Of a stretch of 64,000 nucleotides of DNA, positions 47,331-62,270 are shown piece after piece (positions within the stretch are counted from its first letter, which is position 1; each line of letters starts with the position of its first letter). Where the stretch lies: assembly GCA_951812955.1 (NCBI GenBank), contig OX638340.1:1856001-1920000 (forward strand), written 5' to 3'. The notes beneath the pieces are model-generated. The model saw only the letters and a program-made list of their open reading frames with translations. It had not been told where the DNA came from and made no database searches. The translations under genes and the position numbers were made by a program. This DNA comes from an uncultured Gemmatimonadota bacterium. Lineage in GTDB: Bacteria > JAAXHH01.

Positions 47331-47359
47331 CTGCCGCGGCAAACGCGCGATGTAATCGT

Positions 47360-48535: not shown

Positions 48536-49570
48536 TCAGGTTCTGTATTTCTCCAGTTTCTTCTGTAATCCCGGCCGTTCGAGCACAGCCCTGTTCACCA
48601 CGTAGGGCGGCTCTTCGCCCCTGGAGACGGCCAGGGCCGCCTTGACGCAGTCGTGGCCGATATCACGAAACAGCTCATGGGTCCAGCACGACGCGTGGGG
48701 CGCCAGGATGACATTCGGGAGCGTGAGCAGCTCATCATCGGGATCGGGCGGCTCCCGTTCGAAGACATCGATGGCCGCGCCCTTGATCCAACCGTCCCGC
48801 AGGGCCCGGGTCAGCGCTTCCTGGTCGACGATCGCGCCACGGGCCGTGTTGACCAGGAAGGCGTCCTCCCTCATGAGGCGCAGTTCCCGCGCGCCGATCA
48901 GGTGCCGGGTGTGTTCGTTCAACGGGCAGTGGATGGTCACGAACGTGCTGCGCCGCAACAGGGTCTCACGGTCCACCAGTACAACGCCCAGTTGCGCGGC
49001 CTCTTCCGCGGACACCGCCGGATCGCTGATGAGGACTTCGGACGGCTCGAAGGGCGCCAGCATGCGCACCACCTCGCGGCCGATCATGCCCATGCCAATC
49101 AGGCCGACCACGCGGCCGCGGATCTCGCATCCCATGTGATCGAACCGGACACCCCAGTCGTCATTCCGTACGATGGCGTCCTTAATCGTCACCCGGTGGC
49201 AGAGTCCGAGCATCAGGGCCATCGTGGCGCTGGCCACGGGCCTCCGGGTGGCCTCCGGAGTGATGGTAATCATGACGTCCGCGTCTGTCGCCGCAGCGAG
49301 ATCGATCATGTCGTAGCCCACGCCGGTTCGCGCGATGAGCGCCAGGCGTTCGACGCCCGCGAAGCTTTCACGCGTGTAGGCCTGTCCCATGGATACGACC
49401 ACGTCGAAGTCTGAAAGCTGATCCGGGGTGACGGGACTCCGGTCTTCGGCAAGGTACGCGTGAGAGACTCCGGCCTTGTCCAGCAGGTCGACTCCGAAAT
49501 CGTCGAACACGACCCCGCCGTCTGGACCCAGCAGGTCGGCGACCAGGGCTACGCGGAATTCATCGGTCAT
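48536..49570 (-). CDS. D-isomer-specific 2-hydroxyacid dehydrogenase, NAD-binding
   Basis: GLIGMGMIGREV Rossmann motif and the catalytic triad context NTARG, DVFEREP, APHAS. Confidence 0.85.
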   Translation of the reverse strand: MTDEFRVALVADLLGPDGGVVFDDFGVDLLDKAGVSHAYLAEDRSPVTPDQLSDFDVVVSMGQAYTRESFAGVERLALIARTGVGYDMIDLAAATDADVMITITPEATRRPVASATMALMLGLCHRVTIKDAIVRNDDWGVRFDHMGCEIRGRVVGLIGMGMIGREVVRMLAPFEPSEVLISDPAVSAEEAAQLGVVLVDRETLLRRSTFVTIHCPLNEHTRHLIGARELRLMREDAFLVNTARGAIVDQEALTRALRDGWIKGAAIDVFEREPPDPDDELLTLPNVILAPHASCWTHELFRDIGHDCVKAALAVSRGEEPPYVVNRAVLERPGLQKKLEKYRT

Positions 49571-49598: not shown

Positions 49599-51656
49599 TC
49601 AGAACAGGATCTGGGACGTCGACTTGGCGATCAAGACCAGGGAGACGGCCGCCATGCCGATCAGCCCAAGGCCGCACCCGTACCCGGCGAGGATCACCGG
49701 CGCGTAGGCGCGCCATCGTTTCTCTCCGTAGCGCCGTCCGAAATAGAACCTTCCCAGCATGGCGCCGATGAACGTGGGCAGCGTGTAGTGAATCCACGCG
49801 CCCGTGCCCAGTCCGGCCACCAGGCCGTAGAAAAGCAGCGGCGGCGCTTTGAGCAGGCTCAGCACCCCGTACAGCGCGAACGTGAACCCCATTCCGGCGC
49901 CGATATACTCCCAGCGGATCAGTTGCCCGATCACGTCTGAGCCGCCCGGCAGGGTAGACTTGATCCAGATCGTCTCCATCGTGGCCTGCAGCGGCCACAT
50001 CTTCTCGACGAAAGGATAGGCCGCGGACGGTATGGGCGCCAGTTTCCAGATCAGGGCGTAGAACACGAAACTGAATACGATAAGCAGTATCAGGCTCAAT
50101 ATATAGAGTTTGACCAGGCTTGGAAATCGCGTTCGGGTGAGTTCCAGCTGCCGGAAAGTCGCCACGACGCCGCTGTGATCGAAGAGGGGAACCGGGGCGA
50201 ACCAGATCGCCACCCCCTTGTAGCCCGACAGGTAGAAGGACCCCTCTCTGGCGTAGGGGAAGGATGACCCGTAGGGAGAGCCCGTCAAACCTATCATGCG
50301 GGCGCCGATGTAGGAGAAAAAAGGCGTCCACAGAAACCCGAACACCACGGAGATCCACACGGGAAACGCCGGTTCAAGGTAGTAGACCAGGGCAATAAAG
50401 CACAGGGTCGAAACCACCCAGAGCGCGATGGGGATGGGCAGCCTGAAATCACCCCTTTCCGGCGGCGGTTTGCGGGGGCCCTGCCCGCCGGACGCCCCAT
50501 CCGGGTCTCTCCTCAACGCGCGGGCGAAGGCGACCAGGCCGATCAGGCCGATGACCAGCGAAGTGCCGATGGAAGAAAAACTCAGCCAGAAGTCGATGGT
50601 GTTGTTGATGGAGGTGGGTATGGTGCTCATCCCCGGCGTCCAACTGTGCAACAGGCCGAAGTGGTAGAGGAGCGGATTGGCAATAAAGGTGATGACGAAG
50701 GAACTGATGAAGGTGCCGACCACGATCCAGAAGGGCAGGACGAATCCCACCAGGAGGGTGGCCATGTCCGTTCCGATGCCGATGGGCGACGCGGGCAGCA
50801 CGTCCCGGAACCGCGGCGTGAAGTCCGCGAAGGGAATGGGGAAGACCTCCACACCCTTGGTCAGCACCACGCCGGAAATGGTGGGGACGACGACATATAA
50901 TATGCCCCAGCCCAGTCCGATCATGGCGCCGACGGTGAACATTCGCCATCGCCAGGTCTCTTCCCCCGCCGACGATTCGGCCAGGGCGGTAGCGCCGGCC
51001 GCCTGCACGGGCGCCAGGGGGAAGGGCAGGCGTTCGGTGTCGGCCGTAATCCGGAAGAGCACGTATCCCAGGGAGAGCGCGTTGACCAGGCCGAGGATGG
51101 ACACGAGGACGGCCAGGAGAATGGGCTCCAGCCACTCCATGGAGAAGAGGGTCCGGGTGATCAACGAATCGGCACCCCGGGGCGGGGAAACCCACTGTGG
51201 AAGAAGCTGGGCCAGGCCGTCCGCCTGGGGAGACTGGATCAGGTACTGGAACCAGATCATCTTGGCGAAGGGCGCGCCGTGCACCGACGACCCGGCCGCC
51301 ATACCGCTGGCGCCCAGTCCCGTGGCCGCAAGCCCGGCGGCAAGCCAGTAGAGGATGATGGCTTCCTGAGGCTTGAGCTTTATAAACAGGCGCTTGCCGA
51401 TCTCGATGAACATGATGATGGTGACCCATTCCGCGGCGCCCGCGAAACTCTTGCCCGTCACCAGTTCCAGGTAGATCGCGCCGGGGAGCATGACCAGCCC
51501 CACGAAGAAGGCGGCCCAGATGATGCGGCTGCTGAACCCGTCCTCGTAGGGCAGGTTGTCCGGAACGATCTGCCACCGGTCATCCTGTTCGGCTCCGGTG
51601 GGAATCGCTTCCCGATCCCGCTGTTCGTGCTGCTCGCGTCTGTTTTCGTCGCTCAT
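49599..51656 (-). CDS. Polytopic membrane protein of unknown function (putative transporter, possibly OPT-superfamily-like)
   Basis: 685 aa with at least 14 hydrophobic segments and an acidic N-terminal tail. The LPFPLAPVQAAGATA segment loosely recalls the OPT LxFPSGxAxA motif. Architecture is similar to 57513-59507. Confidence 0.75.
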   Translation of the reverse strand: MSDENRREQHEQRDREAIPTGAEQDDRWQIVPDNLPYEDGFSSRIIWAAFFVGLVMLPGAIYLELVTGKSFAGAAEWVTIIMFIEIGKRLFIKLKPQEAIILYWLAAGLAATGLGASGMAAGSSVHGAPFAKMIWFQYLIQSPQADGLAQLLPQWVSPPRGADSLITRTLFSMEWLEPILLAVLVSILGLVNALSLGYVLFRITADTERLPFPLAPVQAAGATALAESSAGEETWRWRMFTVGAMIGLGWGILYVVVPTISGVVLTKGVEVFPIPFADFTPRFRDVLPASPIGIGTDMATLLVGFVLPFWIVVGTFISSFVITFIANPLLYHFGLLHSWTPGMSTIPTSINNTIDFWLSFSSIGTSLVIGLIGLVAFARALRRDPDGASGGQGPRKPPPERGDFRLPIPIALWVVSTLCFIALVYYLEPAFPVWISVVFGFLWTPFFSYIGARMIGLTGSPYGSSFPYAREGSFYLSGYKGVAIWFAPVPLFDHSGVVATFRQLELTRTRFPSLVKLYILSLILLIVFSFVFYALIWKLAPIPSAAYPFVEKMWPLQATMETIWIKSTLPGGSDVIGQLIRWEYIGAGMGFTFALYGVLSLLKAPPLLFYGLVAGLGTGAWIHYTLPTFIGAMLGRFYFGRRYGEKRWRAYAPVILAGYGCGLGLIGMAAVSLVLIAKSTSQILF

Positions 51657-51756: not shown

Positions 51757-52914
51757 CTACTCCGCCCTGATATAGTTGCCCGCCTTGTCCCAGTCCGGCC
51801 GCGTCAGGCCGTTCAGGTCCCATACCACCTGTCCGGCGCGCACGGTCAGCAGGCATCGCAGCCGCCGGTCGCCGCGCATGCGGGCGAGGCCCGAATCGAC
51901 GAAGCCGAATTCCCCGTATTCCAGTTCCAGCACGGCGACGTCCGCCTCCGCGCCGATGCTCAGGGTACCCAGTTCCGGCCGCCGTATGGTCCGGGCGGGA
52001 TTGCGCGTGGAGCGCATGACCACGTCCTCCAGGGTCATCCCCATGTTCAGGCATTTCGACATGGTCGTGATCATGCTCGCGTTCGGCATAAGGGCACTGT
52101 ACTTGTGGAAATCCGTGCTGACCGTATCCGGCAGGAAGCCCTGCTCGATGGCCGGCACGGCGATGCGGAACCAGAAGCTGCCGCCGCCGTGGCCCAGATC
52201 GAACAGGATGCCCTTGTCCCGCGCCTCCCGGACGTAGTCGTTCACCCTGCCGCGATGGTCCAGCAAGGGGATGTGCTGTGCGTACAGGTGGGTGTGTATG
52301 TCGCCCGGACTCAGTTTCTTCAGCAGCAGGTCCCGGTAGCTGCGGTTCGGCTTCGGTGCGAAATCGATCATGGCAATGGCGCCGCTCCGCCGGGCCGCCT
52401 CGACGGCGCCGTCGACCGCCTCCCACCCCGGTCCGTTGAAATGGGCGGTCTTGGATCCCACGACGTGTTCCGGATACCTGCTGATCATGTCCGCGCAGGG
52501 CACGGGGTCCATCTCCGACACGTCCTGTTCCACGGCGCCTTCCATACCGGCGCCCACGATGTTGATCAGGGCCAGCACCCGGGTTATGGACTCGGCGATG
52601 ACCGTGTCCTTGAAGTCTTCGAATTTCTTCCACCCGGCGCCCCCTGTATCGAGCACCGTGGTCACGCCGTTGGGGAGCACGTGGGCATCGGGGAACACCC
52701 ATCCCCGGTAGCCGCCATAGGCGTGCATGTGGATGTCGATCAGGCCAGGCGTGACGTAATGGCCGTGGACGCGGGCGACCTGTCTCCCGTGCTCCGCCGG
52801 GATGTCGTGTCCAACCGCCGCAATCAGTCCGTCGTTGACGGCGACGTCCCGGCTATCGTTGATGCCGTTTTGGGGATCGATGACCTGTCCGCCCTTGATT
52901 ATGAGATCGTACAT
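51757..52914 (-). CDS. Amidohydrolase-superfamily metallohydrolase (dihydroorotase-like, COG3964/PRK09237-like)
   Basis: PGLIDIHMHAY metal motif, DLGHGGGSFWF, VSTDFH and MSKCLNMGMTLEDVV blocks. AGGAG lies between the upstream stop and the ATG. Confidence 0.8.
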   Translation of the reverse strand: MYDLIIKGGQVIDPQNGINDSRDVAVNDGLIAAVGHDIPAEHGRQVARVHGHYVTPGLIDIHMHAYGGYRGWVFPDAHVLPNGVTTVLDTGGAGWKKFEDFKDTVIAESITRVLALINIVGAGMEGAVEQDVSEMDPVPCADMISRYPEHVVGSKTAHFNGPGWEAVDGAVEAARRSGAIAMIDFAPKPNRSYRDLLLKKLSPGDIHTHLYAQHIPLLDHRGRVNDYVREARDKGILFDLGHGGGSFWFRIAVPAIEQGFLPDTVSTDFHKYSALMPNASMITTMSKCLNMGMTLEDVVMRSTRNPARTIRRPELGTLSIGAEADVAVLELEYGEFGFVDSGLARMRGDRRLRCLLTVRAGQVVWDLNGLTRPDWDKAGNYIRAE

Positions 52915-52924
52915 CGCTGCTCCT

Positions 52925-55900
52925 TCAGGTCAATTGCGGCGCTTCCGCGGGCGCTCGTTCCTCGACTTTCCGGTACTGGTCCTTGATGGACTCGGAAAGG
53001 GTACGCCACACGAGGAAACGTTTCCGCAGCACGGTGAAGAACCGGCGGTTGATGGTCTGCCACTGCGCAAGGTCCCCGCTGCGCCGGCGGATTGCGATCA
53101 TGATCCGGTACAGGCTTTCACCCGGTACGGGCTCCAGTTCCAGCGCCACGTCCTGGCTGATGGCGAGATCGTAGGGCGCGAGCCATACCGTCGCAGATAC
53201 ACGGTAGCCTTCTATAGGCCGGGCCGGTACCACGTCATGCGCCGTTCCCTCCGCGACGAAATCCTCGGCCGAACTGTCCTCGTGGGTCTGGAAAATGTGT
53301 GCCAGGTATCCCGCCAGCGGATAGGCCTCCGGGATGGTGACGGTAAAGGGAAACTCGAAGCGCCAGTCGTCGCCGTCGGGCGTTGGTGGCGCCCAGCGCC
53401 GGGTCACGTCCTCCACCGTCATGTCCGCGGCCTTTTTGGCCGGGTAGAGGGTGGACAGGAACACGACGACCATGACGACCACCGTCGCGTATACGGTCGA
53501 CAACGAGGAATAGTTCAGCGACAGGCCGCCCAGCAGGTCCCACTGCGACAGGCCCATGGTGATGATCTGGCCGGTGAGGTACCCGAACACAGCGCCTAGG
53601 GTGGCGAATACGGCCGCTTCGGCGATGAACAGCGCGGCAACGTGGTTCGGCGCCAGGCCCACGGCGCTGTATACGCCGATCTCCCGGAACCGTTCGAACA
53701 CGGCGCCCATCATGGTGTTCAGAACCAGGAACGCCGCGATGAGCACCGGGATGATCAGGTTGGCCAGGCCCGAGACCGAAGTGGCGCCAAGGGAGCTGTA
53801 GACCTTCACCTCGTCTTCCGTTCCGACAAACACGGCCAGGAGGACCCGTGACATGAAGGCCTCCACGGAATCGCGGAGTTGATCGCCATCCGCGAACCCC
53901 GTGATCGCCACGGACCGCGTGGATCCGTTCAGGTCGAGGGTCTGGCGGTAGGGCAGGACCAGCACGTTGCGGGATGGCAGGTGTTCGGAGGCCTGGATCG
54001 TTGACATGAATACCTCCACGTCCATTTCGGTCAACGAACGGGTCATGGAAAAACTGGCGGGCATGATGCTTTCGTCGTCCATGTCCCGGTAGGCGTCCAG
54101 GCCATCGGATTCGAGCAGTCCGATCACGGTATAGCGGCCGCCCAGGATCTCCACGACCGCCGTACCTACGTCCTCGGGCTCCACGTCCAGCCTTTCGGCC
54201 AGTTCCGTGGGCAGCAGACACACCGCCCTTTCGTCAGGACCGAACCATCGCCCGCCCGGTACCAGGTAGCGGTCCAGCCCGGAAATGGCCGGTTCGTCGG
54301 CGTGAAGTCCGAGCAGGGACTGTACCGTGGTGGAGGTTCCCCGGCCCGGCGCCCGCAGGTCTATGTAGGGGCTGGTGAGATCCTCGGGCTCGTACCACGA
54401 CCTGGGCACGACCTCGGCCTGCGCTTTGAAGGCGTTTTCCACGTAGGGCAGGAAAGAAGAGGGCAGCGAGTGCCACGACAGGTTGCGCATGAGGACGCCG
54501 TCGTACGGGGGGGCGTTCTCGCGGTCCAGCGTATAGAACTGGATGCCGGTCCTGAAGGAGGTGAAGGAAAGCACGGTAAAGGTCAGCAGGGTCAGCGTCA
54601 CCGCCGTCAGAGCCGTGCGCAGCTTCCGCTTGCGAAGGTTCGAAATCCCGAGCGATATGGCCACCGCCGTGGCGCTCAGCCGGCCGATGTCCGCCTCGTG
54701 AAGGCCGGCCGCCGACCGGGTCAGGTTCTTCATCTCCGTGTCGAACCGCGTGACGATCATGGTAATGATAATCAGCGCCATGGCCAGGATGATGAAGGCG
54801 AGGAAAACCATGTAGGGCGTCAGGCTGAGTTGAAAGGCCGGATGCACGTTCTGCAGCAACAAAAAGACCGCCGCGAAGATCACGCCCACCGCGAGCAGCC
54901 GCTTGCGAATGTCCGGGAACCCGAAGAACAGTCGCTCGAGGAAGAAGCAGAAGGGTACCAGCAGCATGAAGTAGAAAACGATGCCGTCCACCGTGTCGTC
55001 CGCGGCGTACCGTACATCGGGATAGGCGCGGGCCTCGTAGCCCCACGCTTCCCTCGACCGGGCCACGAAGGCATCGTAGCGGCGGTCTTCCAGGGCTTCC
55101 CGCGCCGCCCGAAGCGCCTGCGTGCTTTCTTCATGCAACTCGGCTGCCCGGGCGTTCGTCACGCCGTGGTCCTCCAGTTTCATCAGCCGCGCCCTGTTGA
55201 GCGACCACAGGTCCAGGGCGCTCTGGTAGAAGGGATAGAGAATCGGCCCCCGGTCCGCCGTGAAGCCTTGTCCCTGTGCCAGGGCCATGACGTCGTCGGA
55301 GATGCTTTCCGGCGGATCGTCGAGCCAGGACTCCGGCGTATTGGTCAGCAGGTACTTGACGCCCCGGGGACCCGCGCTCATGAACATCTTGACGCGGTCC
55401 TCGGGCTTTGCGAAGACCACCGCGGCGTTGGTCATCCAGTTGCCGAAGAAACTCTGGTCTTCCACGAAGGCCGCCCCGTACTTTCGCAGTGGGCTGTTGT
55501 CCCGTCCGAGCACGGTCAGGTTGTCGAGAGCGACGAAGACGCCGGGATCGACGATATCGAAGAGGTTGATCTCCTCGCACGGAAAGAGGACCTGTATGGT
55601 ATTGTTCACCTTGGACGAATTCGGCACCGCGAGAGGGAAGGTGGCGTCGCCCTCCTCCCCCAGGTCCGGCGCGTACACGACCCTGCCTGTGTCGTCCAGG
55701 CCATAGCTGCGAACCTCGGTCGGGCCCTTGGAGTCGCGGACCATGGAAAAACGGAAGTAACCCATCGAATCCGCGTGGGTGACCATGAACCCCCGCACGC
55801 CGCTGTGGCTCTGGTAGCCCGGCTCGTAGACGACCAGGGCATCGGATACCGGGGTGTTGGGCTTGAAGAAATCCACGGTGCGGTCGAACTCGAGGACCCG

Positions 55901-57511
55901 GCCCTCGATGTCGCGGCCGTCGTCTTTCAGCCGAATGGACTCGTCCACGTCGAAGGCCTCGGGGTCCGACAGCATGGCCGGCAGCAAGGTGCCGATGGTC
56001 CTGATCTGCCGGACCAGGTTGGGGAAATCGACGTGCTCGACCCGGTCGACAGGCGTATCGATCAGCAGCCTGTTGTCGTTCACCGTGGAGAAGGTCATGC
56101 CATGCAGCCCCGCGAGCGTGACCATCTCATGATCGAAGGCTGGACCCGCGGGCATGTAGCTTTCCTGGGACCTGAGCGAAGGCGTCAGCGTATTGAGGTA
56201 GGCCGTCCGGCTGTCCTCCCGATCGTACACGCCGGCCTTGCGTGCGTAATTCATGTACCGGTCCGCATAGGGTTCGTACAGTATATCCAGATTCGAGGCG
56301 AAGAAGATGTAATCGCCGTAGCTGAACAGCCCGACCTGGTCCATCCGGCTGGTCAGGTCCAGACCCAGGAAAAGCGTGAAGGGGATCCGGTCCGCCTCAG
56401 GTATGCGTTCCAGGAAAAAATCGTCCGTCCGATAGTGGCGGTCCAAGAAGTCGTTTATGCCCTGCATGCCGTGGAAATGGGCGGACGTGGCCAGAAACAG
56501 CACGGTGTATCCGGGAGGATGGGCGCGGAACACGTCCAGCAGTTCCAGCATCGCCGCGATGCCGCCCGCGCTCTCGGCGCCCGGGGCCTGTCCGGGTACG
56601 ACCGACATGGCGTCATAGAATGCCGACAACACGACGACGCGGTCCTTCCACTTTTCTGTCCCGTCGCCGCCGGGAATCGGTTCGTCCCGACCCTGTATCC
56701 ACCCCATGACGTTCCAGGTTTCAGCCCGTTCCCACGACATGCGACCCCGGATCGTCACGTCGATGTTGCCGGGTCCTTCGGACCGGGCGGCCTGCAGCAC
56801 CTTCGCCGCGTGGGGATCGGGAATCCAGAACCGCGGGACGTCTGCGGGCACGTCCAGGATCTTGCGCTGGGCCTGGTTGTTGGTCACCGCGCCCGGACCG
56901 CTGTCGTAGAACAGGATAGCCTGCGCGCCCAGCATCCGCGCGTTGAGATACTGGTCTCGCCCGTCGAAATCGATCAGGACGATGCTTCCCTCGATCTCTT
57001 TCCCGTTGAAGGCCTGGAATTCGCCCCGGCGTCCATAGTGCAGTGGGCCTTTGATGCCGTTGGGAAAGGAATTCAGCCGGACCAGATTGGGCCAGAACTG
57101 GTACACCGGGATTTCGGTTTCAACTGAATCGTGCAGGGTAAGCGTGAACCCGTGGTCGACCGGCGAGGAAACGGTGAAGGTATCGATGGTTACTTCGGAC
57201 AGTCCCCCTGCATGGAACGCGTCGACCACGTACTCCATGGCCGCGCGGTTCCCCGGGTAGCCCACGACGCGCGACGGATGTGCGCTCATCGACCGGACGT
57301 GGGCCTCGACGCCCTCCACGGTCACGATTTCGGAGACTTCTTCCCAGGTCACTGGAGCTTCTTCGAGGGGCCTGGGAGTCACGTCATCGGGAAGCGAGAC
57401 GAACCTCAGGATCACGTGCTCCGTGACCCAGGCCGGACCGGCCACGGCCACGGCGAGGAAGAGCAGGACGCCCACGACAAGAAAGAAAGTTCCGAAAATC
57501 CGAGAATACAC
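52925..57511 (-). CDS. Giant membrane protein: N-terminal TM + PA/M28-peptidase-like ectodomain (degenerate active site) + beta-sandwich region + 3 TM + FtsX/MacB-type permease module + C-terminal cytoplasmic domain
   Basis: 1528 aa with a GTG start 1 nt after the upstream stop. PA-like segment GKEIEGSIVLIDFDGR..ARMLGAQAILFY. M28-like blocks VVVLSAFYDAM, PGAESAGGIAAMLEL and VLFLATSAHFHGMQG. FtsX TM RKRKLRTALTAVTLTLLTF and FtsX core NTMMGAVFERFREIGVYSAVGLAPNHVAALFIAEA. Confidence 0.8.
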   Translation of the reverse strand: MYSRIFGTFFLVVGVLLFLAVAVAGPAWVTEHVILRFVSLPDDVTPRPLEEAPVTWEEVSEIVTVEGVEAHVRSMSAHPSRVVGYPGNRAAMEYVVDAFHAGGLSEVTIDTFTVSSPVDHGFTLTLHDSVETEIPVYQFWPNLVRLNSFPNGIKGPLHYGRRGEFQAFNGKEIEGSIVLIDFDGRDQYLNARMLGAQAILFYDSGPGAVTNNQAQRKILDVPADVPRFWIPDPHAAKVLQAARSEGPGNIDVTIRGRMSWERAETWNVMGWIQGRDEPIPGGDGTEKWKDRVVVLSAFYDAMSVVPGQAPGAESAGGIAAMLELLDVFRAHPPGYTVLFLATSAHFHGMQGINDFLDRHYRTDDFFLERIPEADRIPFTLFLGLDLTSRMDQVGLFSYGDYIFFASNLDILYEPYADRYMNYARKAGVYDREDSRTAYLNTLTPSLRSQESYMPAGPAFDHEMVTLAGLHGMTFSTVNDNRLLIDTPVDRVEHVDFPNLVRQIRTIGTLLPAMLSDPEAFDVDESIRLKDDGRDIEGRVLEFDRTVDFFKPNTPVSDALVVYEPGYQSHSGVRGFMVTHADSMGYFRFSMVRDSKGPTEVRSYGLDDTGRVVYAPDLGEEGDATFPLAVPNSSKVNNTIQVLFPCEEINLFDIVDPGVFVALDNLTVLGRDNSPLRKYGAAFVEDQSFFGNWMTNAAVVFAKPEDRVKMFMSAGPRGVKYLLTNTPESWLDDPPESISDDVMALAQGQGFTADRGPILYPFYQSALDLWSLNRARLMKLEDHGVTNARAAELHEESTQALRAAREALEDRRYDAFVARSREAWGYEARAYPDVRYAADDTVDGIVFYFMLLVPFCFFLERLFFGFPDIRKRLLAVGVIFAAVFLLLQNVHPAFQLSLTPYMVFLAFIILAMALIIITMIVTRFDTEMKNLTRSAAGLHEADIGRLSATAVAISLGISNLRKRKLRTALTAVTLTLLTFTVLSFTSFRTGIQFYTLDRENAPPYDGVLMRNLSWHSLPSSFLPYVENAFKAQAEVVPRSWYEPEDLTSPYIDLRAPGRGTSTTVQSLLGLHADEPAISGLDRYLVPGGRWFGPDERAVCLLPTELAERLDVEPEDVGTAVVEILGGRYTVIGLLESDGLDAYRDMDDESIMPASFSMTRSLTEMDVEVFMSTIQASEHLPSRNVLVLPYRQTLDLNGSTRSVAITGFADGDQLRDSVEAFMSRVLLAVFVGTEDEVKVYSSLGATSVSGLANLIIPVLIAAFLVLNTMMGAVFERFREIGVYSAVGLAPNHVAALFIAEAAVFATLGAVFGYLTGQIITMGLSQWDLLGGLSLNYSSLSTVYATVVVMVVVFLSTLYPAKKAADMTVEDVTRRWAPPTPDGDDWRFEFPFTVTIPEAYPLAGYLAHIFQTHEDSSAEDFVAEGTAHDVVPARPIEGYRVSATVWLAPYDLAISQDVALELEPVPGESLYRIMIAIRRRSGDLAQWQTINRRFFTVLRKRFLVWRTLSESIKDQYRKVEERAPAEAPQLT

Positions 57512-57512: not shown

Positions 57513-59507
57513 TCAGTCTATCCCGTAGATATGATGCCCCGCGTGGGGGAACCATATGTAATCAACGAACATGGAGATGACCACGCCGGTAGCCACACCG
57601 AAGATAAGGCCCAGGAAGAAGGGCTGACCCTTTCGGTACAGCTCGATACCGCCGACCCACATCATGATGCTCTTGATGACCCAGCAAACGAACATGGACG
57701 ACACGATAGCGCGTGCGGGCCACGAGTAGGAAAGGAAGAAACCGAGGGGATGCAGCGGCCAGCCGGGCAGCCGGGCCCTCAGGGTCATGAGCAGGAACAT
57801 GAGCCAGCCGCCCACCATGAAGAACATGAGGCGGGCCGTGTCCGGTCCGAAGGGATCCCGCATCTTGGTGAGCGTTTCGTTGTAGGGGATGGTCGATCCG
57901 ATCCTTCCGAACCACCATCCGTTGGTGAACTGCCGCGTGCCCTGGTCGAATCCCAGGTAGATCGTCCAGATCAGCGCGATCACCACGCCGATCACCGCGG
58001 CGGACAGGACTGTCCAGCCCAGTCCACGGTGCCAGCGCGCACCGATCTCTGAAAGCTTGGCCACCTGCATGAAGGCGGGCATGAAGGTCGATTTGATCTC
58101 GCTGACGGGTCCATAGGTCTGGGCCATCGCCGTCATGGTGGACATGGACAGGTTCGCCGACCCGACCGAGTAGAATACGAGCACCTGGGCGATCATGGGC
58201 GAACGCACGTAGGGCAGCCCGGCTTCGGCGATGATGCGGGAGACGCCGATATAGATGACGAAGACGCCCGCGAGGAGGAACACGGCAATGGGCACGCTCA
58301 TGCCCAGCTGGTTCAGCCACACGATCCCGTAGACGAACCCGCCGAGAAAGCCGAAGACGGCGACCCGGTAGGGCAGCATCTCATCGGAGTCGTCCAGGTC
58401 CGATCTGCGGCCGAACGCATGGGAGAACACCGCGCGGATGTGAAACCTGGCCCGCCACAGCCCCCAGGCTACGAACACGATGAAGGCGCCCATGTTCTGC
58501 CAGTCCAGCATGGGGTGGATTGACGTGTAGTTGTCCCTGCCAGGTATGTCGTAACCGATCCGTTGTGCGATGCCTACCTGGATGATCCCGATCATGTAGA
58601 ACACCCAGAACCCGGCCAGCACGTCCAGGTTGACGAAGTAGGAAATACCGAGGATGGCTGGCCGGAAGTTGATCTCCAGCGGAGGGAATCCTTCGCCGAA
58701 GACAATGGGCGGCGCCGACCCGAAATAGGGAAACTGGGGCACGACCGGTGTGAAGTATCCGATAATGTTGTACATCATCACGCAGAAAGGGATGGAAAAG
58801 CCGATCCAGAAACGTTTCTCGGTCATAAATTCCGGGATGCGTCCCGACGATTCCATGCCTCGCGTCAAGGCGAGGGGGATCTGCATCATGGGGAATACCA
58901 GTTTCTCGTGTTCGACCCACTGTCTTCTGAGGATCACCACGAGACACAGCCCCATGAAGATGATCGGTACGATGAAGGTCAGCCACCAGAACAGGGGAAT
59001 GCCCCACACGCTCCAGGGTATGGACTCACCGGGCGGGATACCGTCGACGAACCAGGTCAGCGCATTGCCCTGGTTGGTGACGTTCGCCCAGGGTTTCAAA
59101 TAGGGATAAAAGTATTCTGCCCACTGGTTCTCGGGCGTCGCCAGGAGATTCGGCGCCATGAGCGTGGAGATAAACGGGGCGCCCATGCCGTTGGTCGACA
59201 GCCCGGAAGCCGCCATGCCCATGGCCAGGGGGATGACGAACTCGTGGGACGTCAGGGCCCAGTCTTTCTTCCACCGGGCCAGTATCACGTTGAACAGGAT
59301 GAGATACGCAAAGGCCAGGAACAACGCACCGATGTGAAGATGGTCCGCGCCGAGTTGAGACGAGGCCATGGTGTACTGAAAATAGGGGACGATCAGGGAA
59401 ATCAGGACGACGCTCGTCAGGCCCAGGAGGATGGATCTCGGCGTAATGATCCGGGTCGCGGTCGTCGGGCCGGCGGAAGAGGATACACTTTGCTGGGCTG
59501 AGGCCAT
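57513..59507 (-). CDS. Polytopic membrane protein of unknown function (putative transporter)
   Basis: About 664 aa from the ATG at 59507; the ORF opens at a TTG at 59615 inside the likely promoter. At least 14 hydrophobic segments. The C-terminal WPLHPLGFFLSYSW...GGIELYRKGQPFFLGLIFG parallels the C-terminus of 49599-51656. Confidence 0.75.
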   Translation of the reverse strand: MASAQQSVSSSAGPTTATRIITPRSILLGLTSVVLISLIVPYFQYTMASSQLGADHLHIGALFLAFAYLILFNVILARWKKDWALTSHEFVIPLAMGMAASGLSTNGMGAPFISTLMAPNLLATPENQWAEYFYPYLKPWANVTNQGNALTWFVDGIPPGESIPWSVWGIPLFWWLTFIVPIIFMGLCLVVILRRQWVEHEKLVFPMMQIPLALTRGMESSGRIPEFMTEKRFWIGFSIPFCVMMYNIIGYFTPVVPQFPYFGSAPPIVFGEGFPPLEINFRPAILGISYFVNLDVLAGFWVFYMIGIIQVGIAQRIGYDIPGRDNYTSIHPMLDWQNMGAFIVFVAWGLWRARFHIRAVFSHAFGRRSDLDDSDEMLPYRVAVFGFLGGFVYGIVWLNQLGMSVPIAVFLLAGVFVIYIGVSRIIAEAGLPYVRSPMIAQVLVFYSVGSANLSMSTMTAMAQTYGPVSEIKSTFMPAFMQVAKLSEIGARWHRGLGWTVLSAAVIGVVIALIWTIYLGFDQGTRQFTNGWWFGRIGSTIPYNETLTKMRDPFGPDTARLMFFMVGGWLMFLLMTLRARLPGWPLHPLGFFLSYSWPARAIVSSMFVCWVIKSIMMWVGGIELYRKGQPFFLGLIFGVATGVVISMFVDYIWFPHAGHHIYGID

Positions 59508-59605: not shown

Positions 59606-59660
59606 AGAAAAACAAAGTTCCATGAGGTCCTGAGCCACCATCGGCCAGACCTTTTCGTTG

Positions 59661-59689
59661 TTGACACGATTCCGGTTTGCGGGGATATT
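59661..59689 (+). promoter_or_regulatory. Candidate sigma-70-type promoter TTGACA-N17-GATATT for the RND exporter gene
   Basis: Perfect -35 hexamer at 59661-59666 and -10-like GATATT at 59684-59689, about 40 nt upstream of the GTG at 59730. Confidence 0.4.
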
Positions 59690-59729
59690 TCCATACCTTG
59701 ATGTACCCGTTTCATACGAGGGATTTACA

Positions 59730-62270
59730 GTGAAGGCCGAAACGAGAGCCGCCATAGACCGCTTGCTGAACAGGTACATCGCCTTCATCTGCCGCCATCC
59801 GGCGAAGATCCTCCTGGGTGCGCTGCTGACCGCATTGCTCTCCGCGCATTTCGCATCCAGGCTTCAGCTTAAAACCGACTTCGTGGAACTGCTCCCGGAA
59901 GGCTACCGGAGCGTCGACGACATTCACCGGATCACGGAGCGCGTCGGCGGCATCGGCAACCTGACCGTCGTCATTGAAACGGAAGACCTGACTTCGGCAC
60001 AGCGGTTCGCCGACGACCTCGCCGGCAGGATCCATTCCGATCTTCCCGAGGGGTATATCCGGTATATCGAGTACCGGGTGGACGAGGAGAAGCGCTTCTA
60101 CGAAGACCACAAATATCTGTATGCGGATCTGGAGGACCTGGAAGAGATCCAGAACCGCCTGAGCCGACAGATCCTGAAGACGAAACTGGAGCAGAACCCC
60201 CTCTTCGTTTCCGAGGAAGACCTCGGGCTGGAAACGGAAGACGAACCGTTTACCTTGAGCGATCTGGAAGAGAAGTACGAAAAGAAAGCGGGGGAGAAGC
60301 TGGACAAGTGGGTCGACGGCTATTTCACGGGGCACGACGAGCAGGGGCAGTTTCTCGTCATGGTCCTGAAACCCTTCGGTTCGTCGACCGGCGTTTCCTT
60401 TTCGCGGGACCTGTGCGAACGGGTACTCGCCATCGTAGAAGGGCTTGACCCCCCGTCATACCATCCATCGCTGAAAGTGGGCCTCACCGGCAAGTACCGC
60501 CTGATCCTGGACCAGTACTCTTCCGTCCAGCGGGAGATCTTCTCGTCCGCCGCCTTCACACTGACCCTGGTGGCCCTGGTCATCTTCCTCTACTTCCGCA
60601 CCATCGTCCCGGTCATCAACATCACGCTGGTCGTGGTCGTCGGCATACTCTGGACGTTCTGCCTGACCTATTTCCGCATTGGCTACCTCAACATGCAGAC
60701 CGCCTTCCTGGGCGCCATCATCATTGGGAACGGCATCAACTACGGCCTGATCCTCATGGCCAGGTACAAGGAAGAAAGGCTGCAGGGAGCGGACGCCCTT
60801 GAAGGCGTGCAGATCGCCTTTCGGAATACGATTACCGCGACGGTCACAAGCGCGGCGTCCACGGGCCTCGCATACGGCACGCTCATGATCACTGATTTTC
60901 GCGGCTTCAATCACTTCGGGTTCATCGGCGGCCTCGGCATGCTGCTGTGTTGGATTTCCACCTTTTCTATCATGCCGGCGCTGCTGATGCTGTGGGACCG
61001 CACCCGTTTCGGGCGGAAGACCTGGACGCGGAAGGTCTCGCGGGGCGGGTCGCTGACCCATCTCGCCAACCTGGTGCAAAAGGCGCCGCAGGCCGTGGTG
61101 GGCACGAGTATCTCCCTGGTCGTGCTGGGTACCGCCCTCCTGGTGTGGTGGCTTCCGAATTCCTTCGAATACGACTTCTCGAAACTGCGAAACGAACCGC
61201 GGGGCGATACTTACGAGCGGATCCTCAACCACCGCGTAAACGCCCTGTTCGGTATATCGCAGTCTCCCGCGGTTATCCTCGCGGACCGCCTGGACCAGGT
61301 CCCGGGCATCCGGCGCGCCGTGCTGGACAAGAAAGAAGCGGAGAAAGAGGGTCCCAAACCGACCATCGACCGGGTGCGAACCATCTTCGATCTGCTGCCG
61401 GAGGACCAGGAAGACAAGATCGACGTGCTCTGGGACATAGATTACATGCTGGACACCAATCCGCCCGACGAACTTGGCATACCGCCCGACCAGCTCGAAA
61501 GGATCAACGCGTTCCGAGAGAACCTGAGCCTGGATGAAATCACCGTTGATGACCTGCCCCAGGCGCTCACGCGTCCCTTCGAGGAGCGGGACGGGACAGT
61601 GGGCAGGCTCGTCTACGTCTACCCGAGGTCGGACGCCGGACTCTGGAACGGCAGGAACCTGATCCGGTTCGCGGAAGTCGTCCGTTCCAACCGCCTGCCA
61701 GACGATGAAGTCATCTATTCCTCCGGTGAGGCCGTGGTATTCGCCGACATGCTGAAGGCCGTGGACCGCGACGGCCCCATTGCCACGGTCGCCTGCTTCG
61801 TGGGCGTTATCGCGCTACTCTTACTGGCATTCCGCAGCGTCCACGCGTCGGTCGTGATCCTGGCTTCCCTGCTGGGCGGCATGCTGGTCATGGGCGGCGT
61901 CATCGCCGTCTTCGACATCAAGGTGAATTTCTTCAACTTCATCGTCATACCCACTACGCTGGGGATCGGCGTGGACTACAGCGTGAACCTGTATCAACGC
62001 TACCGCCTTGACGGACGCGGTTCCATACGTAATATGGTACAGCATACAGGCGCGGCCCTGGTCATGTGTTCGTCCACGACGCTGATCGGTTACACTTCTC
62101 TCATGCTCACGTCCAACCGGGGCCTGCATTCCTTCGGCATCATGGCCAACGTGGGAGAGATCGCCACGCTGGCAACGGCCCTGGTCGCGCTGCCCGCCTA
62201 TCTGCTTATTATGGAAAAGCGGATGAGGAACAAGGCGCCTGGAACGCGGAGTCCGGTTCACGCCGCTTGA
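59730..62270 (+). CDS. RND-superfamily exporter, MMPL/COG1033-type (HpnN-like architecture)
   Basis: Two 6-TM bundles, each preceded by a large loop, with SSD-like blocks (FLGAIIIGNGINYGLILMARYKEE; TTLGIGVDYSVNLYQRY). GTG at 59730 is preceded by GAGGGA and lies downstream of a TTGACA-N17-GATATT promoter. The ORF opens at 59658. Confidence 0.8.
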   Translation: MKAETRAAIDRLLNRYIAFICRHPAKILLGALLTALLSAHFASRLQLKTDFVELLPEGYRSVDDIHRITERVGGIGNLTVVIETEDLTSAQRFADDLAGRIHSDLPEGYIRYIEYRVDEEKRFYEDHKYLYADLEDLEEIQNRLSRQILKTKLEQNPLFVSEEDLGLETEDEPFTLSDLEEKYEKKAGEKLDKWVDGYFTGHDEQGQFLVMVLKPFGSSTGVSFSRDLCERVLAIVEGLDPPSYHPSLKVGLTGKYRLILDQYSSVQREIFSSAAFTLTLVALVIFLYFRTIVPVINITLVVVVGILWTFCLTYFRIGYLNMQTAFLGAIIIGNGINYGLILMARYKEERLQGADALEGVQIAFRNTITATVTSAASTGLAYGTLMITDFRGFNHFGFIGGLGMLLCWISTFSIMPALLMLWDRTRFGRKTWTRKVSRGGSLTHLANLVQKAPQAVVGTSISLVVLGTALLVWWLPNSFEYDFSKLRNEPRGDTYERILNHRVNALFGISQSPAVILADRLDQVPGIRRAVLDKKEAEKEGPKPTIDRVRTIFDLLPEDQEDKIDVLWDIDYMLDTNPPDELGIPPDQLERINAFRENLSLDEITVDDLPQALTRPFEERDGTVGRLVYVYPRSDAGLWNGRNLIRFAEVVRSNRLPDDEVIYSSGEAVVFADMLKAVDRDGPIATVACFVGVIALLLLAFRSVHASVVILASLLGGMLVMGGVIAVFDIKVNFFNFIVIPTTLGIGVDYSVNLYQRYRLDGRGSIRNMVQHTGAALVMCSSTTLIGYTSLMLTSNRGLHSFGIMANVGEIATLATALVALPAYLLIMEKRMRNKAPGTRSPVHAA

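What the first reader, a model, noticed from the sequence alone, without database searches (positions are those of the whole stretch)
52925..57511. 1528-aa chimera: transferrin-receptor-like (PA + M28) ectodomain with degenerate catalytic residues fused to an FtsX permease
The layout by residue is as follows:
- TM1 (5-27)
- PA-like insert (~150-250)
- M28-like core (~260-500)
- a beta-sandwich with a carboxypeptidase-regulatory-like signature (EGRVLEF...ALVVYEPG...THADSMGYFRF, ~535-590)
- a helical segment (~770-830)
- three TMs (843-922)
- an FtsX TM (963-985)
- a ~260-aa periplasmic domain
- the FtsX core (1246-1358)
- a 170-aa cytoplasmic tail without a Walker motif

Aligned by eye to the M28 consensus, the metal and catalytic positions are replaced. 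AH.DS becomes AFYDAM (His to Phe). G.EE.GL.GS becomes SAHFHGMQG (Glu-Glu to His-Phe). YHT..D becomes LIDTPVD (His to Asp). The bridging Asp region reads GAESAGG. The overall topology mimics a duplicated FtsX permease whose first periplasmic domain has been swapped for a ~830-aa pseudo-peptidase. This is analogous to the non-catalytic PA/M28 receptor architecture of transferrin-receptor-type proteins. I am not aware of a described M28::FtsX fusion.
Basis: partly seen in the sequence, partly recalled or inferred. Interest (0 to 1): 0.75.

Follow-up and report, generated by a model that had tools for sequence, protein, structure and literature searches.

The report
Pseudo-peptidase fused to ATPase-less FtsX permease
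This is a real, widespread but unstudied 1528-residue inner-membrane protein in which a peptidase-like outer domain with a rewritten metal site is fused to an FtsX/MacB-type membrane module that has no ATPase gene nearby and instead travels with uncharacterised DUF6785 membrane proteins.

Summary
ORF 52925-57511 (-) encodes one 1528-aa protein: TM1, a PA-inserted M28 fold, beta-rich domains, a helical stalk, three TMs, a complete FtsX/MacB module, and a 155-aa cytoplasmic tail.

It is not an assembly artefact. Collinear homologues (38-98% identity) occur in at least 591 loci of species-representative genomes, and the tail profile finds 1557 clusters at 50% identity.

But E313, H345, D385 and D485 are nearly invariant, so the site is remodelled, not decayed.

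- No ABC ATPase lies in the operon, the 64-kb window or beside the gene in 80 related loci.
- The tail is among the most conserved regions and is probably a helix-grip-like alpha+beta domain, not an NBD.
- In 51 of 54 well-flanked loci the gene sits with one or two DUF6785-superfamily polytopic proteins. Here these are 57513-59507 and a divergent paralogue at 49599-51656.

"Duplicated FtsX" has no sequence support. The family is uncharacterised. My best reading, at low confidence, is an NBD-less FtsX-fold receptor or processing subunit of DUF6785 permeases.

The parts
52925..57511 (-). Whole gene: 1528-aa M28-like::FtsX giant membrane protein. The GTG start lies 1 nt after the TGA stop of the upstream DUF6785 gene.
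57440..57508 (-). TM1 (res 2-24). N-terminal signal-anchor; a cleavable signal peptide cannot be excluded. Poorly conserved.
57077..57334 (-). N-terminal part of the M28 fold (res 60-145), before the PA insertion.
   Evidence: Profile alignment to 2ek8 begins here; AF2.
56747..57076 (-). PA (protease-associated, 'apical') domain inserted in the M28 fold (res 146-255).
   Evidence: Pfam PA E 2e-4; aligned to the PA domain of 2ek8 and 6hc6; Foldseek.
55967..56746 (-). M28 core (res 256-515) carrying the remodelled site: F298, D300, E313, H345, F346, D385, D485, D489.
55346..55915 (-). Beta-rich region (res 533-722), probably two beta-sandwich-like domains. No family assignment.
   Evidence: AF2 strands; no Pfam hit at E<=10.
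54998..55234 (-). Helical stalk (res 760-838). Helices 760-781 and 787-808, and a long helix from 812 that continues into TM2.
54746..54997 (-). TM2-TM4 of the first membrane module (res 839-922). Well conserved (D839, E859, R860, H890, P891 invariant), not FtsX-like by sequence.
54554..54688 (-). Cytoplasmic elbow helix plus FtsX TM1 (res 942-986). 54% of the TM1 positions (res 963-986) are >=95% conserved.
53777..54553 (-). MacB-type periplasmic core domain (res 987-1245).
53420..53776 (-). FtsX TM2-TM4 with the coupling-helix motif ERFREIGVYSAVGLAPNH (res 1246-1364).
52955..53419 (-). Cytoplasmic C-terminal domain (res 1365-1519), order beta-alpha-beta4-alpha-alpha. Family-defining motifs DxWxF[DE]FPFT and RK[RQ]FL[VI]WRT. 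Not an NBD.
57513..59507 (-). Upstream partner gene: 664-aa polytopic membrane protein, DUF6785 + DUF6784. Likely translationally coupled to the giant.
49599..51656 (-). Downstream partner gene: 685-aa polytopic membrane protein with no Pfam or NCBIfam hit. A divergent DUF6785/6784 paralogue, conserved next to the giant in 46 of 80 loci.
51757..52914 (-). PRK09237-type amidohydrolase/deacetylase gene between the giant and the downstream partner. Found only in the ortholog clade; probably cargo of the same operon, not a core part.

Best explanation
SHOWN. The gene encodes one genuine 8-TM inner-membrane protein. Its large periplasmic head is a PA-inserted M28 fold that lacks the canonical co-catalytic zinc site but keeps a strictly conserved, rewritten pocket (E313, H345, D385, D485). 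The head sits on a helical stalk and a conserved 3-TM bundle. It is covalently followed by a complete type VII (MacB/FtsX-fold) permease unit: elbow helix, TM1, Porter/Sabre periplasmic domain, TM2, coupling helix, TM3-4. The protein ends in a highly conserved cytoplasmic alpha+beta domain that is not a nucleotide-binding domain. No ABC ATPase is encoded with it in any of the lineages examined. Instead it is almost always encoded next to one or two DUF6785-superfamily polytopic membrane proteins. Elsewhere those proteins stand alone in catabolic gene clusters, as solute permeases do.

INFERRED (low confidence). The giant protein is an ATPase-independent accessory subunit of DUF6785 permeases. 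The pseudo-M28/PA head captures, and perhaps trims, a periplasmic ligand that has a free amino terminus: peptides, or peptide-bearing envelope or nutrient fragments. The FtsX-fold module and its cis cytoplasmic domain take the structural place of the NBD. Together they couple ligand occupancy in the periplasm to the neighbouring permease(s), which carry the product across the membrane. In this window's clade the operon continues into an amidohydrolase, 2-hydroxyacid and Ldh_2 dehydrogenases and hut genes. That fits uptake feeding amino-acid or organic-acid catabolism.
For: - Real and single-chain. 120 listed homologue clusters are collinear over 95-100% of the length at 38-98% identity, including long-read complete chromosomes. 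At least 591 loci occur in GTDB species representatives.
- Site. F298, E313, H345, F346, D385 and D485 align to AAP H97, D117, E151, E152, D179 and H256. Among 121 homologues E313 is kept in 118, H345 in 121, D385 in 120 and D485 in 121. No canonical ligand set appears among the 93 representatives of >=1300 aa or the 58 ectodomain hits.
- No NBD. No Walker A plus LSGGQ ORF in the 64-kb window. ABC-motif ORFs occur in only 15 of 80 loci, all 4-9 kb away. In the annotated example L001 that gene precedes BPD_transp_1 importer permease genes. No ABC_tran domain appears in the precomputed Pfam lists of the 120 listed homologues, nor in the 8 tail-bearing proteins scanned.
- Partners. DUF6785/6784 gene stop and giant start are 1 nt apart. 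A DUF6785-superfamily gene is present in 51 of 54 loci with >=2.5 kb flanks, mostly <250 bp away. The downstream 685-aa protein is homologous to DUF6785/6784 (hhalign 92.9%, E 3.6e-7, 562 columns). Pairs are tandemly duplicated in L002.
- DUF6785 alone sits in SDR, AP_endonuc_2, GFO_IDH, sulfatase, MFS and glycoside-hydrolase clusters.
- Conservation is highest in FtsX TM1 (54% of positions >=95% conserved), FtsX TM2-4 (39%) and the tail (27%). The ectodomain domains score 5-16%.
- The tail is always C-terminal, in 1557 clusters.
Against: - The FtsX coupling-helix motif that normally docks an NBD is almost invariant. That is what one would also expect if a trans-encoded MacB/LolD-type ATPase is used.
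- Orphan FtsX permeases are known (NCBIfam TIGR03434, the ADOP family of duplicated permeases). Operon absence is therefore not proof of independence.
- I could not inspect model coordinates or PAE. Neither the docking of the tail under the coupling helix nor the geometry of the pocket is tested.
- No structure or homologue is available for DUF6785. 'Permease' rests on gene context only.
- Some variants carry LysM and NMB0315-like domains, which points to peptidoglycan rather than nutrient uptake.
Confidence: 0.35

Rival explanations
1. It is a conventional ATP-driven type VII ABC system whose ATPase is encoded elsewhere. Mechanotransmission from a trans NBD moves the periplasmic domain and the fused pseudo-M28 head. 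The head then does periplasmic work, or activates another enzyme, much as FtsEX drives the catalytically dead LytM domain of EnvC. The DUF6785 proteins are clients or co-factors.
For: - A complete canonical FtsX module with a near-invariant coupling helix and elbow helix.
- All characterised members of this fold are ATP-powered (PMC5985334, PMC12646458).
- Orphan FtsX permeases exist (NCBIfam TIGR03434 ADOP, named).
- LysM and NMB0315-domain variants suggest a peptidoglycan-facing role.
- FtsEX-EnvC is a precedent for an FtsX permease working through a degenerate metallopeptidase domain (PMC7668044).
Against: - No ABC ATPase is adjacent in any of 80 loci across several phyla, nor in the 64-kb window.
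- No NBD fusion appears in the precomputed Pfam lists of 120 homologues or the 8 tail-bearing proteins scanned.
- A conserved 155-aa domain follows TM4 directly, where the NBD would sit.
- Only one FtsX module per chain carries a coupling helix. The first module's TM2-TM3 loop has about 5 residues.
Confidence: 0.25
2. The head is still an enzyme: a membrane-tethered hydrolase with a mononuclear or otherwise non-canonical metal centre built from E313, D485 and H345, with D385 as helper. It trims periplasmic peptides, or another amide substrate, for uptake by the DUF6785 permeases.
For: - {E313, D485, H345} is two carboxylates plus one His, the same chemistry as canonical Zn1 {D117, E152, H256}.
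- These residues are invariant in 118-121 of 121 homologues.
- Subsets of the family add H298 (29 of 121) or H346 (24 of 121). Each completes one canonical-like metal site, and P0014 has both.
- The best-scoring AAP chain is the E151H mutant, 2anp. Its paper calls it 'functional' (Bzymek et al. 2005, title cited in PMC3426542).
Against: - In the wider family position 313 is G, S, T, N or Q, and position 485 is N, G, A, Q, E or W, in roughly a tenth of representatives each.
- Positions 298 and 346 interchange F/Y/H and F/H/Y/C/G, like aromatic packing or stacking residues rather than ligands.
- If H345 is a metal ligand, no general base is left.
- Geometry was not tested.
Confidence: 0.17
3. 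It is a transmembrane receptor (transceptor). Ligand binding to the pseudo-M28/PA head is transmitted through the FtsX helices to the cytoplasmic helix-grip-like domain. That domain regulates the adjacent permeases or a cytoplasmic target, and no transport-coupled work is done in the periplasm.
For: - BceAB-type FtsX permeases are known to act in sensing as well as detoxification (PMC5985334).
- The strongest conservation is in the TM helices and tail.
Against: - No signalling domain or regulator gene is conserved nearby.
- The multi-paralogue distribution next to permease genes looks metabolic rather than regulatory.
Confidence: 0.1
4. It is an artefact: a frameshift or assembly chimera joining a peptidase gene to an FtsX gene, or a decaying pseudogene.
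For: None found. High GC produces long spurious ORFs on other frames, but this frame is the one with homologues.
Against: - Hundreds of collinear full-length homologues from independent assemblies, including complete long-read chromosomes.
- Conservation spans every domain boundary.
- The AF2 models are confident.
Confidence: 0.01

Closest known systems
Type VII ABC transporter permeases (MacB, LolC/LolE, FtsX, YtrF, HrtB)
   Same: - The C-terminal half has the full unit: elbow helix, TM1, Porter/Sabre-type periplasmic domain, TM2, coupling helix, TM3-4.
- Pfam FtsX and MacB_PCD both pass their gathering scores.
   Different: - No fused or operon-encoded NBD.
- A conserved 155-aa non-NBD domain follows TM4.
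- An extra N-terminal module of TM1, an ~810-aa ectodomain and 3 TMs precedes it.
- Short TM1 and TM2 without the long MacB stalk, closer to YtrF, HrtB and FtsX.
FtsEX-EnvC and YbbAP-TesA (type VII systems working through a periplasmic pseudo-peptidase or hydrolase)
   Same: An FtsX-fold permease is physically coupled to a periplasmic hydrolase-fold domain. In EnvC that domain is a catalytically dead metallopeptidase (LytM) domain (PMC7668044, PMC12646458).
   Different: - There the partner is a separate protein and the system is ATP-driven by FtsE or YbbA.
- Here the pseudo-peptidase has the M28 fold, is covalently fused, and no ATPase is encoded with it.
Bacterial PA-domain M28 aminopeptidases (Aneurinibacillus AM-1 aminopeptidase 2ek8, B. 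subtilis BSAP/YwaD 6hc6, P. aeruginosa PaAP 8acg)
   Same: - Best sequence-profile and structural matches: E 1.7e-17, Foldseek 3.7e-23.
- Same M28 fold with PA inserted at the same place.
   Different: - Those are secreted, active dizinc enzymes with H/D/EE/D/H.
- Here the positions read F, E, H-F, D, D, with a one-residue deletion at the bridging-Asp loop.
- This protein is membrane-embedded.
Non-catalytic M28-like proteins: transferrin receptor, nicalin; also GCPII/NAALADase (M28B)
   Same: - N-terminal membrane anchor plus protease-like domain with a PA/apical insert.
- Loss of canonical catalysis, as in TfR and nicalin.
- The loop between the HxD-equivalent and the bridging residue has the same length as in nicalin, aligned without gaps.
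   Different: - No TFR_dimer helical domain is detected.
- These are eukaryotic, single-pass proteins.
- The substitutions are different, and here they are conserved.
ADOP family duplicated orphan permeases (TIGR03434) and fused permeases BceB/YbbP
   Same: - A large single-chain FtsX-type permease.
- The ADOP name denotes duplicated orphan permeases, that is, not paired with an ATPase gene.
   Different: - Those have two recognisable FtsX domains.
- Here there is only one. The TIGR03434 score is 21.7 bits against a cut-off of 622.
- The first TM module shows no FtsX similarity.

Membership tests
Peptidase family M28 (Pfam PF04389 / MEROPS M28) | M28 alpha/beta fold recognisable by sequence and structure | tested here: met
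   Pfam 30.2 bits against GA 21.3; profile to 2ek8 E 1.7e-17; Foldseek 3.7e-23.
Peptidase family M28 (Pfam PF04389 / MEROPS M28) | Five co-catalytic Zn ligands His, Asp (bridging), Glu, Asp, His | tested here: not met
   F298, E313, F346, D385 and D485 at the aligned positions. D385 was placed by motif only, not by the HMMER alignment.
Peptidase family M28 (Pfam PF04389 / MEROPS M28) | Catalytic general-base Glu (first E of the EE motif) | tested here: not met
   H345, invariant in 121 of 121 homologues.
Transferrin-receptor-like / M28B proteins | PA (apical) domain inserted in the protease-like domain, with an N-terminal membrane anchor | tested here: met
Transferrin-receptor-like / M28B proteins | C-terminal helical dimerisation domain (TFR_dimer) | tested here: not met
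   No such Pfam hit for the whole protein at E<=1, nor for residues 518-853 at E<=10. After the M28 core come beta-rich domains and then a helical stalk.
Type VII ABC transporter (MacB/FtsX superfamily) | 4-TM FtsX domain with a periplasmic domain between TM1 and TM2 | tested here: met
Type VII ABC transporter (MacB/FtsX superfamily) | Cytoplasmic coupling helix between TM2 and TM3 | tested here: met
   Motif ERFREIGVYSAVGLAP aligned to YtrF, MacB and LolC; AF2 helix at residues 1275-1283; near-invariant.
Type VII ABC transporter (MacB/FtsX superfamily) | Cognate ABC ATPase, fused or encoded in the same operon | tested here: not met
   None in the ORF, the operon or the 64-kb window. None adjacent in 80 loci. 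No ABC_tran in the homologues' Pfam lists.
Type VII ABC transporter (MacB/FtsX superfamily) | ATPase supplied in trans from elsewhere in the genome | not testable with these tools
It needs a genome-wide pairing census or biochemistry.
ADOP duplicated permease (TIGR03434) / fused BceB-YbbP type | Two FtsX domains in one chain | tested here: not met
   TIGR03434 scores 21.7 bits against a cut-off of 622. hhalign of TM2-4 of the first module against the FtsX core gives probability 0.05%.
DUF6785/DUF6784 (partner proteins) | Match to PF20581 and PF20580 | tested here: met
   Upstream gene: E 3.5e-110 and 4.4e-22. Downstream 685-aa protein: only by profile-profile comparison, probability 92.9%.

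The most novel reading that the evidence does not exclude
This would be the first family of MacB/FtsX-fold ('type VII ABC') membrane machines that has dispensed with the ABC ATPase altogether. A conserved cis cytoplasmic helix-grip-like domain sits in the NBD's place. The fold is re-used as a conformational coupler between a periplasmic pseudo-peptidase receptor and a new, uncharacterised permease superfamily (DUF6785). Together they would form a previously unrecognised uptake or hand-over system that is common in Latescibacterota, Gemmatimonadota, Zixibacteria and Planctomycetota, with fragments also from Armatimonadota.
Probability: 0.3. Interest if true: 0.85.

Novelty: new variant of a known kind. 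Interest (0 to 1): 0.62.

Why it matters
Every characterised FtsX/MacB-fold protein converts cytoplasmic ATP hydrolysis into periplasmic work. A large, widely distributed family keeps this fold intact but is never encoded with an ATPase. It carries its own conserved cytoplasmic domain and is genetically tied to an unknown permease family. That raises a testable question: can mechanotransmission modules run without ATP, or in reverse?

It also gives a first functional handle on DUF6785/DUF6784, which has no literature. And it adds a bacterial example of an M28 fold re-purposed with a conserved, rewritten metal-ligand set.

The host phyla are almost entirely uncultured, so this abundant, multi-paralogue system is likely to matter for how they interact with periplasmic or environmental substrates.

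Tried and rejected
- **Frameshift or assembly chimera.** Rejected: collinear homologues in independent and long-read assemblies.
- **First TM module as a degenerate FtsX repeat.** hhalign probability is 0.05% and there is no Pfam hit. This leaves topological resemblance only.
- **CarboxypepD_reg or any Pfam family for residues 518-853, and for the tail.** No hit at E<=10 for this protein's residues 518-853 or its tail. For 19 tail sequences from family members at E<=5, only scattered non-significant hits (best E 0.015) turned up.
- **Tail as an NBD.** No Walker or ABC motifs. The fold order is beta-alpha-beta4-alpha-alpha. The tail profile against PDB gave only spurious designed-repeat hits.
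- **PDB relatives of DUF6785.** None, with a single sequence or with a 45-sequence profile. No weak Pfam relatives.
- **Literature.** Searches for DUF6785/DUF6784, PF20581/PF20580, M28+FtsX, and orphan or ATPase-less FtsX found nothing relevant.
- **Free-standing canonical M28 relatives of the head.** Only fragments of the same family turned up, all with the same YDEH[FH]DDD signature.
- **Short 'FtsX+tail' proteins (450-1300 aa).** These are collinear fragments, not a separate architecture. Four start at the beta-domain boundary and may be real short forms.
- **Promoter and terminator scan of the operon.** Not above shuffled expectation.
- **Limits.** I could not obtain model coordinates or PAE, so pocket geometry and tail docking remain untested.
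Full report

The minus-strand ORF 52925..57511 starts with GTG and encodes 1528 aa. Pfam finds four domains:
- PA at 168-213: E 2e-4, just below the gathering score.
- Peptidase_M28 at 287-502: 30.2 bits against a cut-off of 21.3.
- MacB_PCD at 966-1159: 28 bits against 27.
- FtsX at 1255-1364: 51.3 bits against 25.5.

A hydropathy scan gives eight TM segments: 5-23, 840-858, 868-886, 902-920, 968-986, 1246-1264, 1291-1309 and 1332-1350. The K/R-rich loops fit an N-in topology with both large domains periplasmic and the tail cytoplasmic.

Two AlphaFold2 models were built on a 102-sequence alignment. Residues 1-940 gave pLDDT 90 and pTM 0.84. Residues 830-1528 gave pLDDT 85.5 and pTM 0.67.
- TM1.
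- The M28 fold from about residue 60, with PA inserted at about 146-255.
- A beta-rich region at 533-722.
- Helices 760-781 and 787-808, and a 51-residue helix (812-862) that runs from the periplasm into TM2.
- Two further TMs.
- An elbow helix (942-958) and FtsX TM1.
- A beta/alpha periplasmic domain, then TM2, a short coupling helix (1275-1283), TM3 and TM4.
- A tail with the order beta-alpha-beta-beta-beta-beta-alpha-alpha (about 1382-1519).

The ORF contains no Walker A or ABC signature.

Two details of the description fail. Residues 518-853 hit no Pfam family even at E<=10, so the 'carboxypeptidase-regulatory-like signature' has no support. The first TM module shows no sequence similarity to the FtsX core (hhalign probability 0.05%).

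**2. It is a gene family, not an artefact.**

The full-length query finds 360 proteins. The best 120 clusters are 1370-1889 aa and mostly cover 95-100% of the query at 38-98% identity. They come from Gemmatimonadota, Latescibacterota, Zixibacteria and Planctomycetota MAGs, including multi-megabase long-read contigs.

Sources name them 'FtsX-like permease family protein', 'M28 family peptidase' or 'hypothetical'. None carries an ABC_tran domain.

Several paralogues occur per genome.

A profile of the tail alone, searched against 1.84 billion cluster representatives, finds 1557 clusters at E<=1e-3 and 1362 at E<=1e-10. The tail is always at the C-terminus, in proteins up to 3053 aa. The larger ones add Big_5 arrays, or LysM plus an NMB0315-like domain, in front of the same M28...FtsX core. 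Shorter hits are collinear fragments.

NCBIfam has no model for the family. I found no paper on it.

**3. The M28 site.**

A 16-sequence profile of residues 60-540 hits solved structures in this order:
- PA-containing M28 aminopeptidases: 2ek8 at E 1.7e-17 and BSAP/YwaD 6hc6 at 1.5e-10.
- Nicalin at 7e-8.
- Aeromonas aminopeptidase (AAP). The best-scoring AAP chain is the E151H mutant, 2anp.
- Transferrin receptor at 5e-5, covering only the N-terminal and PA part.

Foldseek with the model gives the same order: 2ek8 at 3.7e-23, BSAP, PaAP, then NAALADase-L, GCPII and TfR1 at about 1e-19.

The printed alignments place the residues as follows.

| AAP residue | Role | This protein | Note |
|---|---|---|---|
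| H97 | Zn2 ligand | F298 | |
| D117 | bridging ligand | E313 | one-residue deletion in the loop |
| E151 | general base | H345 | |
| E152 | Zn1 ligand | F346 | |
| D179 | Zn2 ligand | D385 | placed by motif (GLDLS), not covered by HMMER |
| H256 | Zn1 ligand | D485 | DTPxD in place of HTPxD |

The replacements are not drift, however. In 121 homologues:
- E313 is kept in 118, H345 in 121, D385 in 120, D485 in 121, and D300 and D489 in 121.
- Only position 298 (Y58/F34/H29) and position 346 (F93/H24) vary.

Among the 93 representatives of at least 1300 aa from the tail search, D300, H345, D385 and D489 stay almost universal. Position 313 is sometimes G, S, T, N or Q. Position 485 is sometimes N, G, A, Q, E or W. 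Not one sequence has the canonical set.

A search with the head alone found only fragments of this same family, all carrying the YDEH[FH]DDD signature. Some now come from Armatimonadota and Fervidibacterota. There is no close free-standing canonical relative.

Chemically, {E313, D485, H345} equals the canonical Zn1 set of two carboxylates and one His. A mononuclear site therefore cannot be excluded. The F/Y/H interchange at 298 and 346, and the erosion of 313 and 485 in some lineages, argue against an obligatory metal. I could not examine coordinates, so geometry is untested.

My conclusion: canonical dizinc aminopeptidase chemistry is absent, but the pocket is functional.

**4. The FtsX half.**

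phmmer against PDB aligns residues 1250-1369 to YtrF, MacB, LolC/E, LolF and FtsX, including the ER-x-x-EIG coupling-helix motif. Structural matches agree:
- Foldseek: MacB at 3.3e-13, LolCDE, HrtB, BceB, YbbP, and isolated MacB periplasmic domains with TMt 0.56-0.63.

So the unit is a complete type VII permease module. TM1 and TM2 are short, with no long MacB stalk. The long stalk belongs instead to the first module.

The TM2-TM3 loop of the first module has only about five residues, so it has no coupling helix. The known arrangements of this fold are homodimer, heterodimer, or two fused units with two linker TMs. All have NBDs (PMC5985334). None matches this protein.

**5. No ATPase, but constant partners.**

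The 64-kb window has no ORF with Walker A plus an ABC signature. Among 80 related loci with up to 10-kb flanks, ABC-motif ORFs occur in 15, always 4-9 kb downstream. In the annotated example L001 that gene is followed by BPD_transp_1 genes, so it belongs to an unrelated importer.

Directly upstream, with TGA-C-GTG between stop and start, lies a 664-aa DUF6785+DUF6784 polytopic protein. The same family is found:
- adjacent in an 8-Mb MAG, as two tandem DUF6785-giant pairs;
- nearby in L001, separated from the giant by transposase genes;
- downstream in Planctomycetes DG_23.

Clustering all ORFs of the 80 loci gives two partner clusters, each present in 46 loci. One is DUF6785. The other is a protein of about 660 aa with no Pfam hit, usually <250 bp downstream. 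The window's 685-aa ORF 49599-51656 belongs to that second cluster. It is a distant DUF6785/6784 homologue: hhalign probability 92.9%, E 3.6e-7, over 562 columns.

Of 54 loci with the full gene and at least 2.5 kb on both sides, 51 have at least one of the two partners and 18 have both.

DUF6785 proteins also occur without the giant. They sit in clusters of SDR, AP_endonuc_2 and GFO_IDH oxidoreductases, sulfatases, an MFS transporter, or giant glycoside hydrolases and lyases. That is the usual setting of a solute permease.

They have no PDB or Pfam relatives by HMM, and no literature.

**6. The tail.**

Residues 1365-1519 contain the two motifs that were most conserved in the whole alignment: DxWxF[DE]FPFT and RK[RQ]FL[VI]WRT. 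27% of its positions are at least 95% conserved. Other regions compare as follows:
- FtsX TM1: 54%.
- FtsX TM2-4: 39%.
- The ectodomain domains (M28, PA, beta regions, helical stalk): 5-16% each.

Scanned as an isolated segment, the tail of this protein has no Pfam family. Across 19 family members only scattered non-significant hits appeared (best E 0.015).

It is not a P-loop domain.

**7. How it most likely works.**

Shown:
- A periplasmic pseudo-M28/PA head with a conserved rewritten pocket.
- A complete FtsX-fold module.
- A conserved cis cytoplasmic domain.
- No cognate ATPase gene.
- A near-obligate genetic link to DUF6785-superfamily membrane proteins.

Inferred (confidence about 0.35): the giant is an ATPase-independent accessory subunit of DUF6785 permeases. 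The head binds, and possibly trims, an amino-terminus-bearing periplasmic ligand. The FtsX module with its tail couples occupancy to the neighbouring permease(s), which do the membrane crossing. FtsX-fold proteins themselves have no transmembrane channel (PMC5985334).

In this clade the co-directional cluster runs as follows, with intergenic gaps of 1, 10, 100 and 28 nt:
- DUF6785
- the giant
- a PRK09237-type amidohydrolase
- the DUF6785-like gene
- a 2-hydroxyacid dehydrogenase

It is followed by an Ldh_2 gene, an RraA-like gene, hutU and hutH. This fits uptake feeding amino-acid or organic-acid catabolism. The context differs in paralogue clades.

Rivals:
- **(a) A conventional type VII system with a trans-encoded NBD**, acting like FtsEX on EnvC's dead LytM domain (0.25). 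In favour: the invariant coupling helix and the LysM-bearing variants. Against: the universal absence of a linked ATPase, and the cis tail.
- **(b) A still-active non-canonical metallohydrolase** (0.17).
- **(c) A transceptor** (0.1).
- **(d) An artefact** (0.01).

**8. Comparison and membership.**

It has the M28 fold but fails the ligand and catalytic-Glu criteria. It is an M28 homologue, not an M28 peptidase.

It resembles TfR and nicalin in being a membrane-anchored, PA-bearing, non-canonical M28 protein. It lacks the TFR_dimer domain, and it is closer to bacterial PA-M28 aminopeptidases.

Its C-terminal half meets every structural criterion of type VII ABC permeases, except that it has no fused or operon-encoded ATPase. 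Supply in trans is not testable here.

It is not an ADOP, BceB or YbbP-type duplicated permease.

**9. Verdict.**

The finding is real, and more interesting in its context than in the fusion alone. It is a large, uncharacterised, multi-phylum family. I rate it a new variant of known kinds (type VII permease plus pseudo-M28), with a credible chance of being the first ATPase-less use of the MacB/FtsX fold and a first functional clue to DUF6785. The mechanism remains inferred.

Interest: 0.62.

Noticed in passing
L085 8001-12060; L086 8001-9926; L088 7001-8962; L090 7001-8893: DUF6785/DUF6784 proteins also occur without the M28-FtsX giant. They sit in clusters with SDR, AP_endonuc_2, GFO_IDH_MocA, sulfatase and MFS genes, or with giant GH123/GH42/heparinase-like enzymes. 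This suggests a stand-alone solute-permease family with no literature at all.
   Followed up: partly
window 49599-51656 (-): A 685-aa polytopic protein with no Pfam or NCBIfam hit is a distant DUF6785/6784 homologue (hhalign 92.9%). Its relatives lie directly downstream of the giant in many loci. It is probably an unrecognised branch of the DUF6785 family.
   Followed up: yes
L002 1241-14545: In an 8-Mb MAG chromosome the DUF6785-giant gene pair is tandemly duplicated: DUF6785, 1505-aa giant, DUF6785, 1514-aa giant.
   Followed up: no
L001 2886-9353: In one paralogue locus two transposase genes (Transposase_mut, DDE_Tnp_1) and two small genes separate the DUF6785 gene from the giant gene.
   Followed up: no
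proteins P0241, P0242, P0246 (2769-3053 aa) and P0274 (2451 aa): Very large family members add Big_5 Ig-like arrays, or LysM plus an NMB0315-like domain I, N-terminal to the M28 head. The LysM version hints at peptidoglycan or GlcNAc-polymer binding.
   Followed up: partly
proteins P0243, P0280, P0303, P0336: Four cluster representatives of about 1035-1115 aa begin at about residue 534-592 of the giant, the boundary after the M28 core. They could be short isoforms lacking PA/M28, or split gene calls.
   Followed up: no
PDB 2anp: Among the Aeromonas aminopeptidase chains, the family profile scores best against the engineered E151H mutant, because the family has an invariant His at that position. 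The paper describing that mutant calls it 'functional'.
   Followed up: partly
window 59658-62270 (+) and beyond; L087 1-7782: Divergent from the operon lies an MMPL/RND-type transporter gene. In the 98%-identical locus L087 it is followed by bacillithiol biosynthesis genes (BshC, a PIG-L deacetylase, a GT4 glycosyltransferase), a rhodanese gene and yet another DUF6785 gene. A rhodanese gene between two DUF6785 genes recurs in L089.
   Followed up: no
window 42460-49570 (-): Downstream on the same strand are amino-acid and organic-acid catabolism genes: a 2-hydroxyacid dehydrogenase, an Ldh_2 family dehydrogenase, an RraA-like protein, urocanate hydratase (hutU, 932 bits) and histidine ammonia-lyase (hutH).
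   Followed up: partly
protein P0426 (373 aa): A public gene call combines a DUF6784 C-terminus with the start of the M28 head. It is most likely a read-through or mis-call across the 1-nt gap, and it illustrates how tightly the two genes abut.
   Followed up: no
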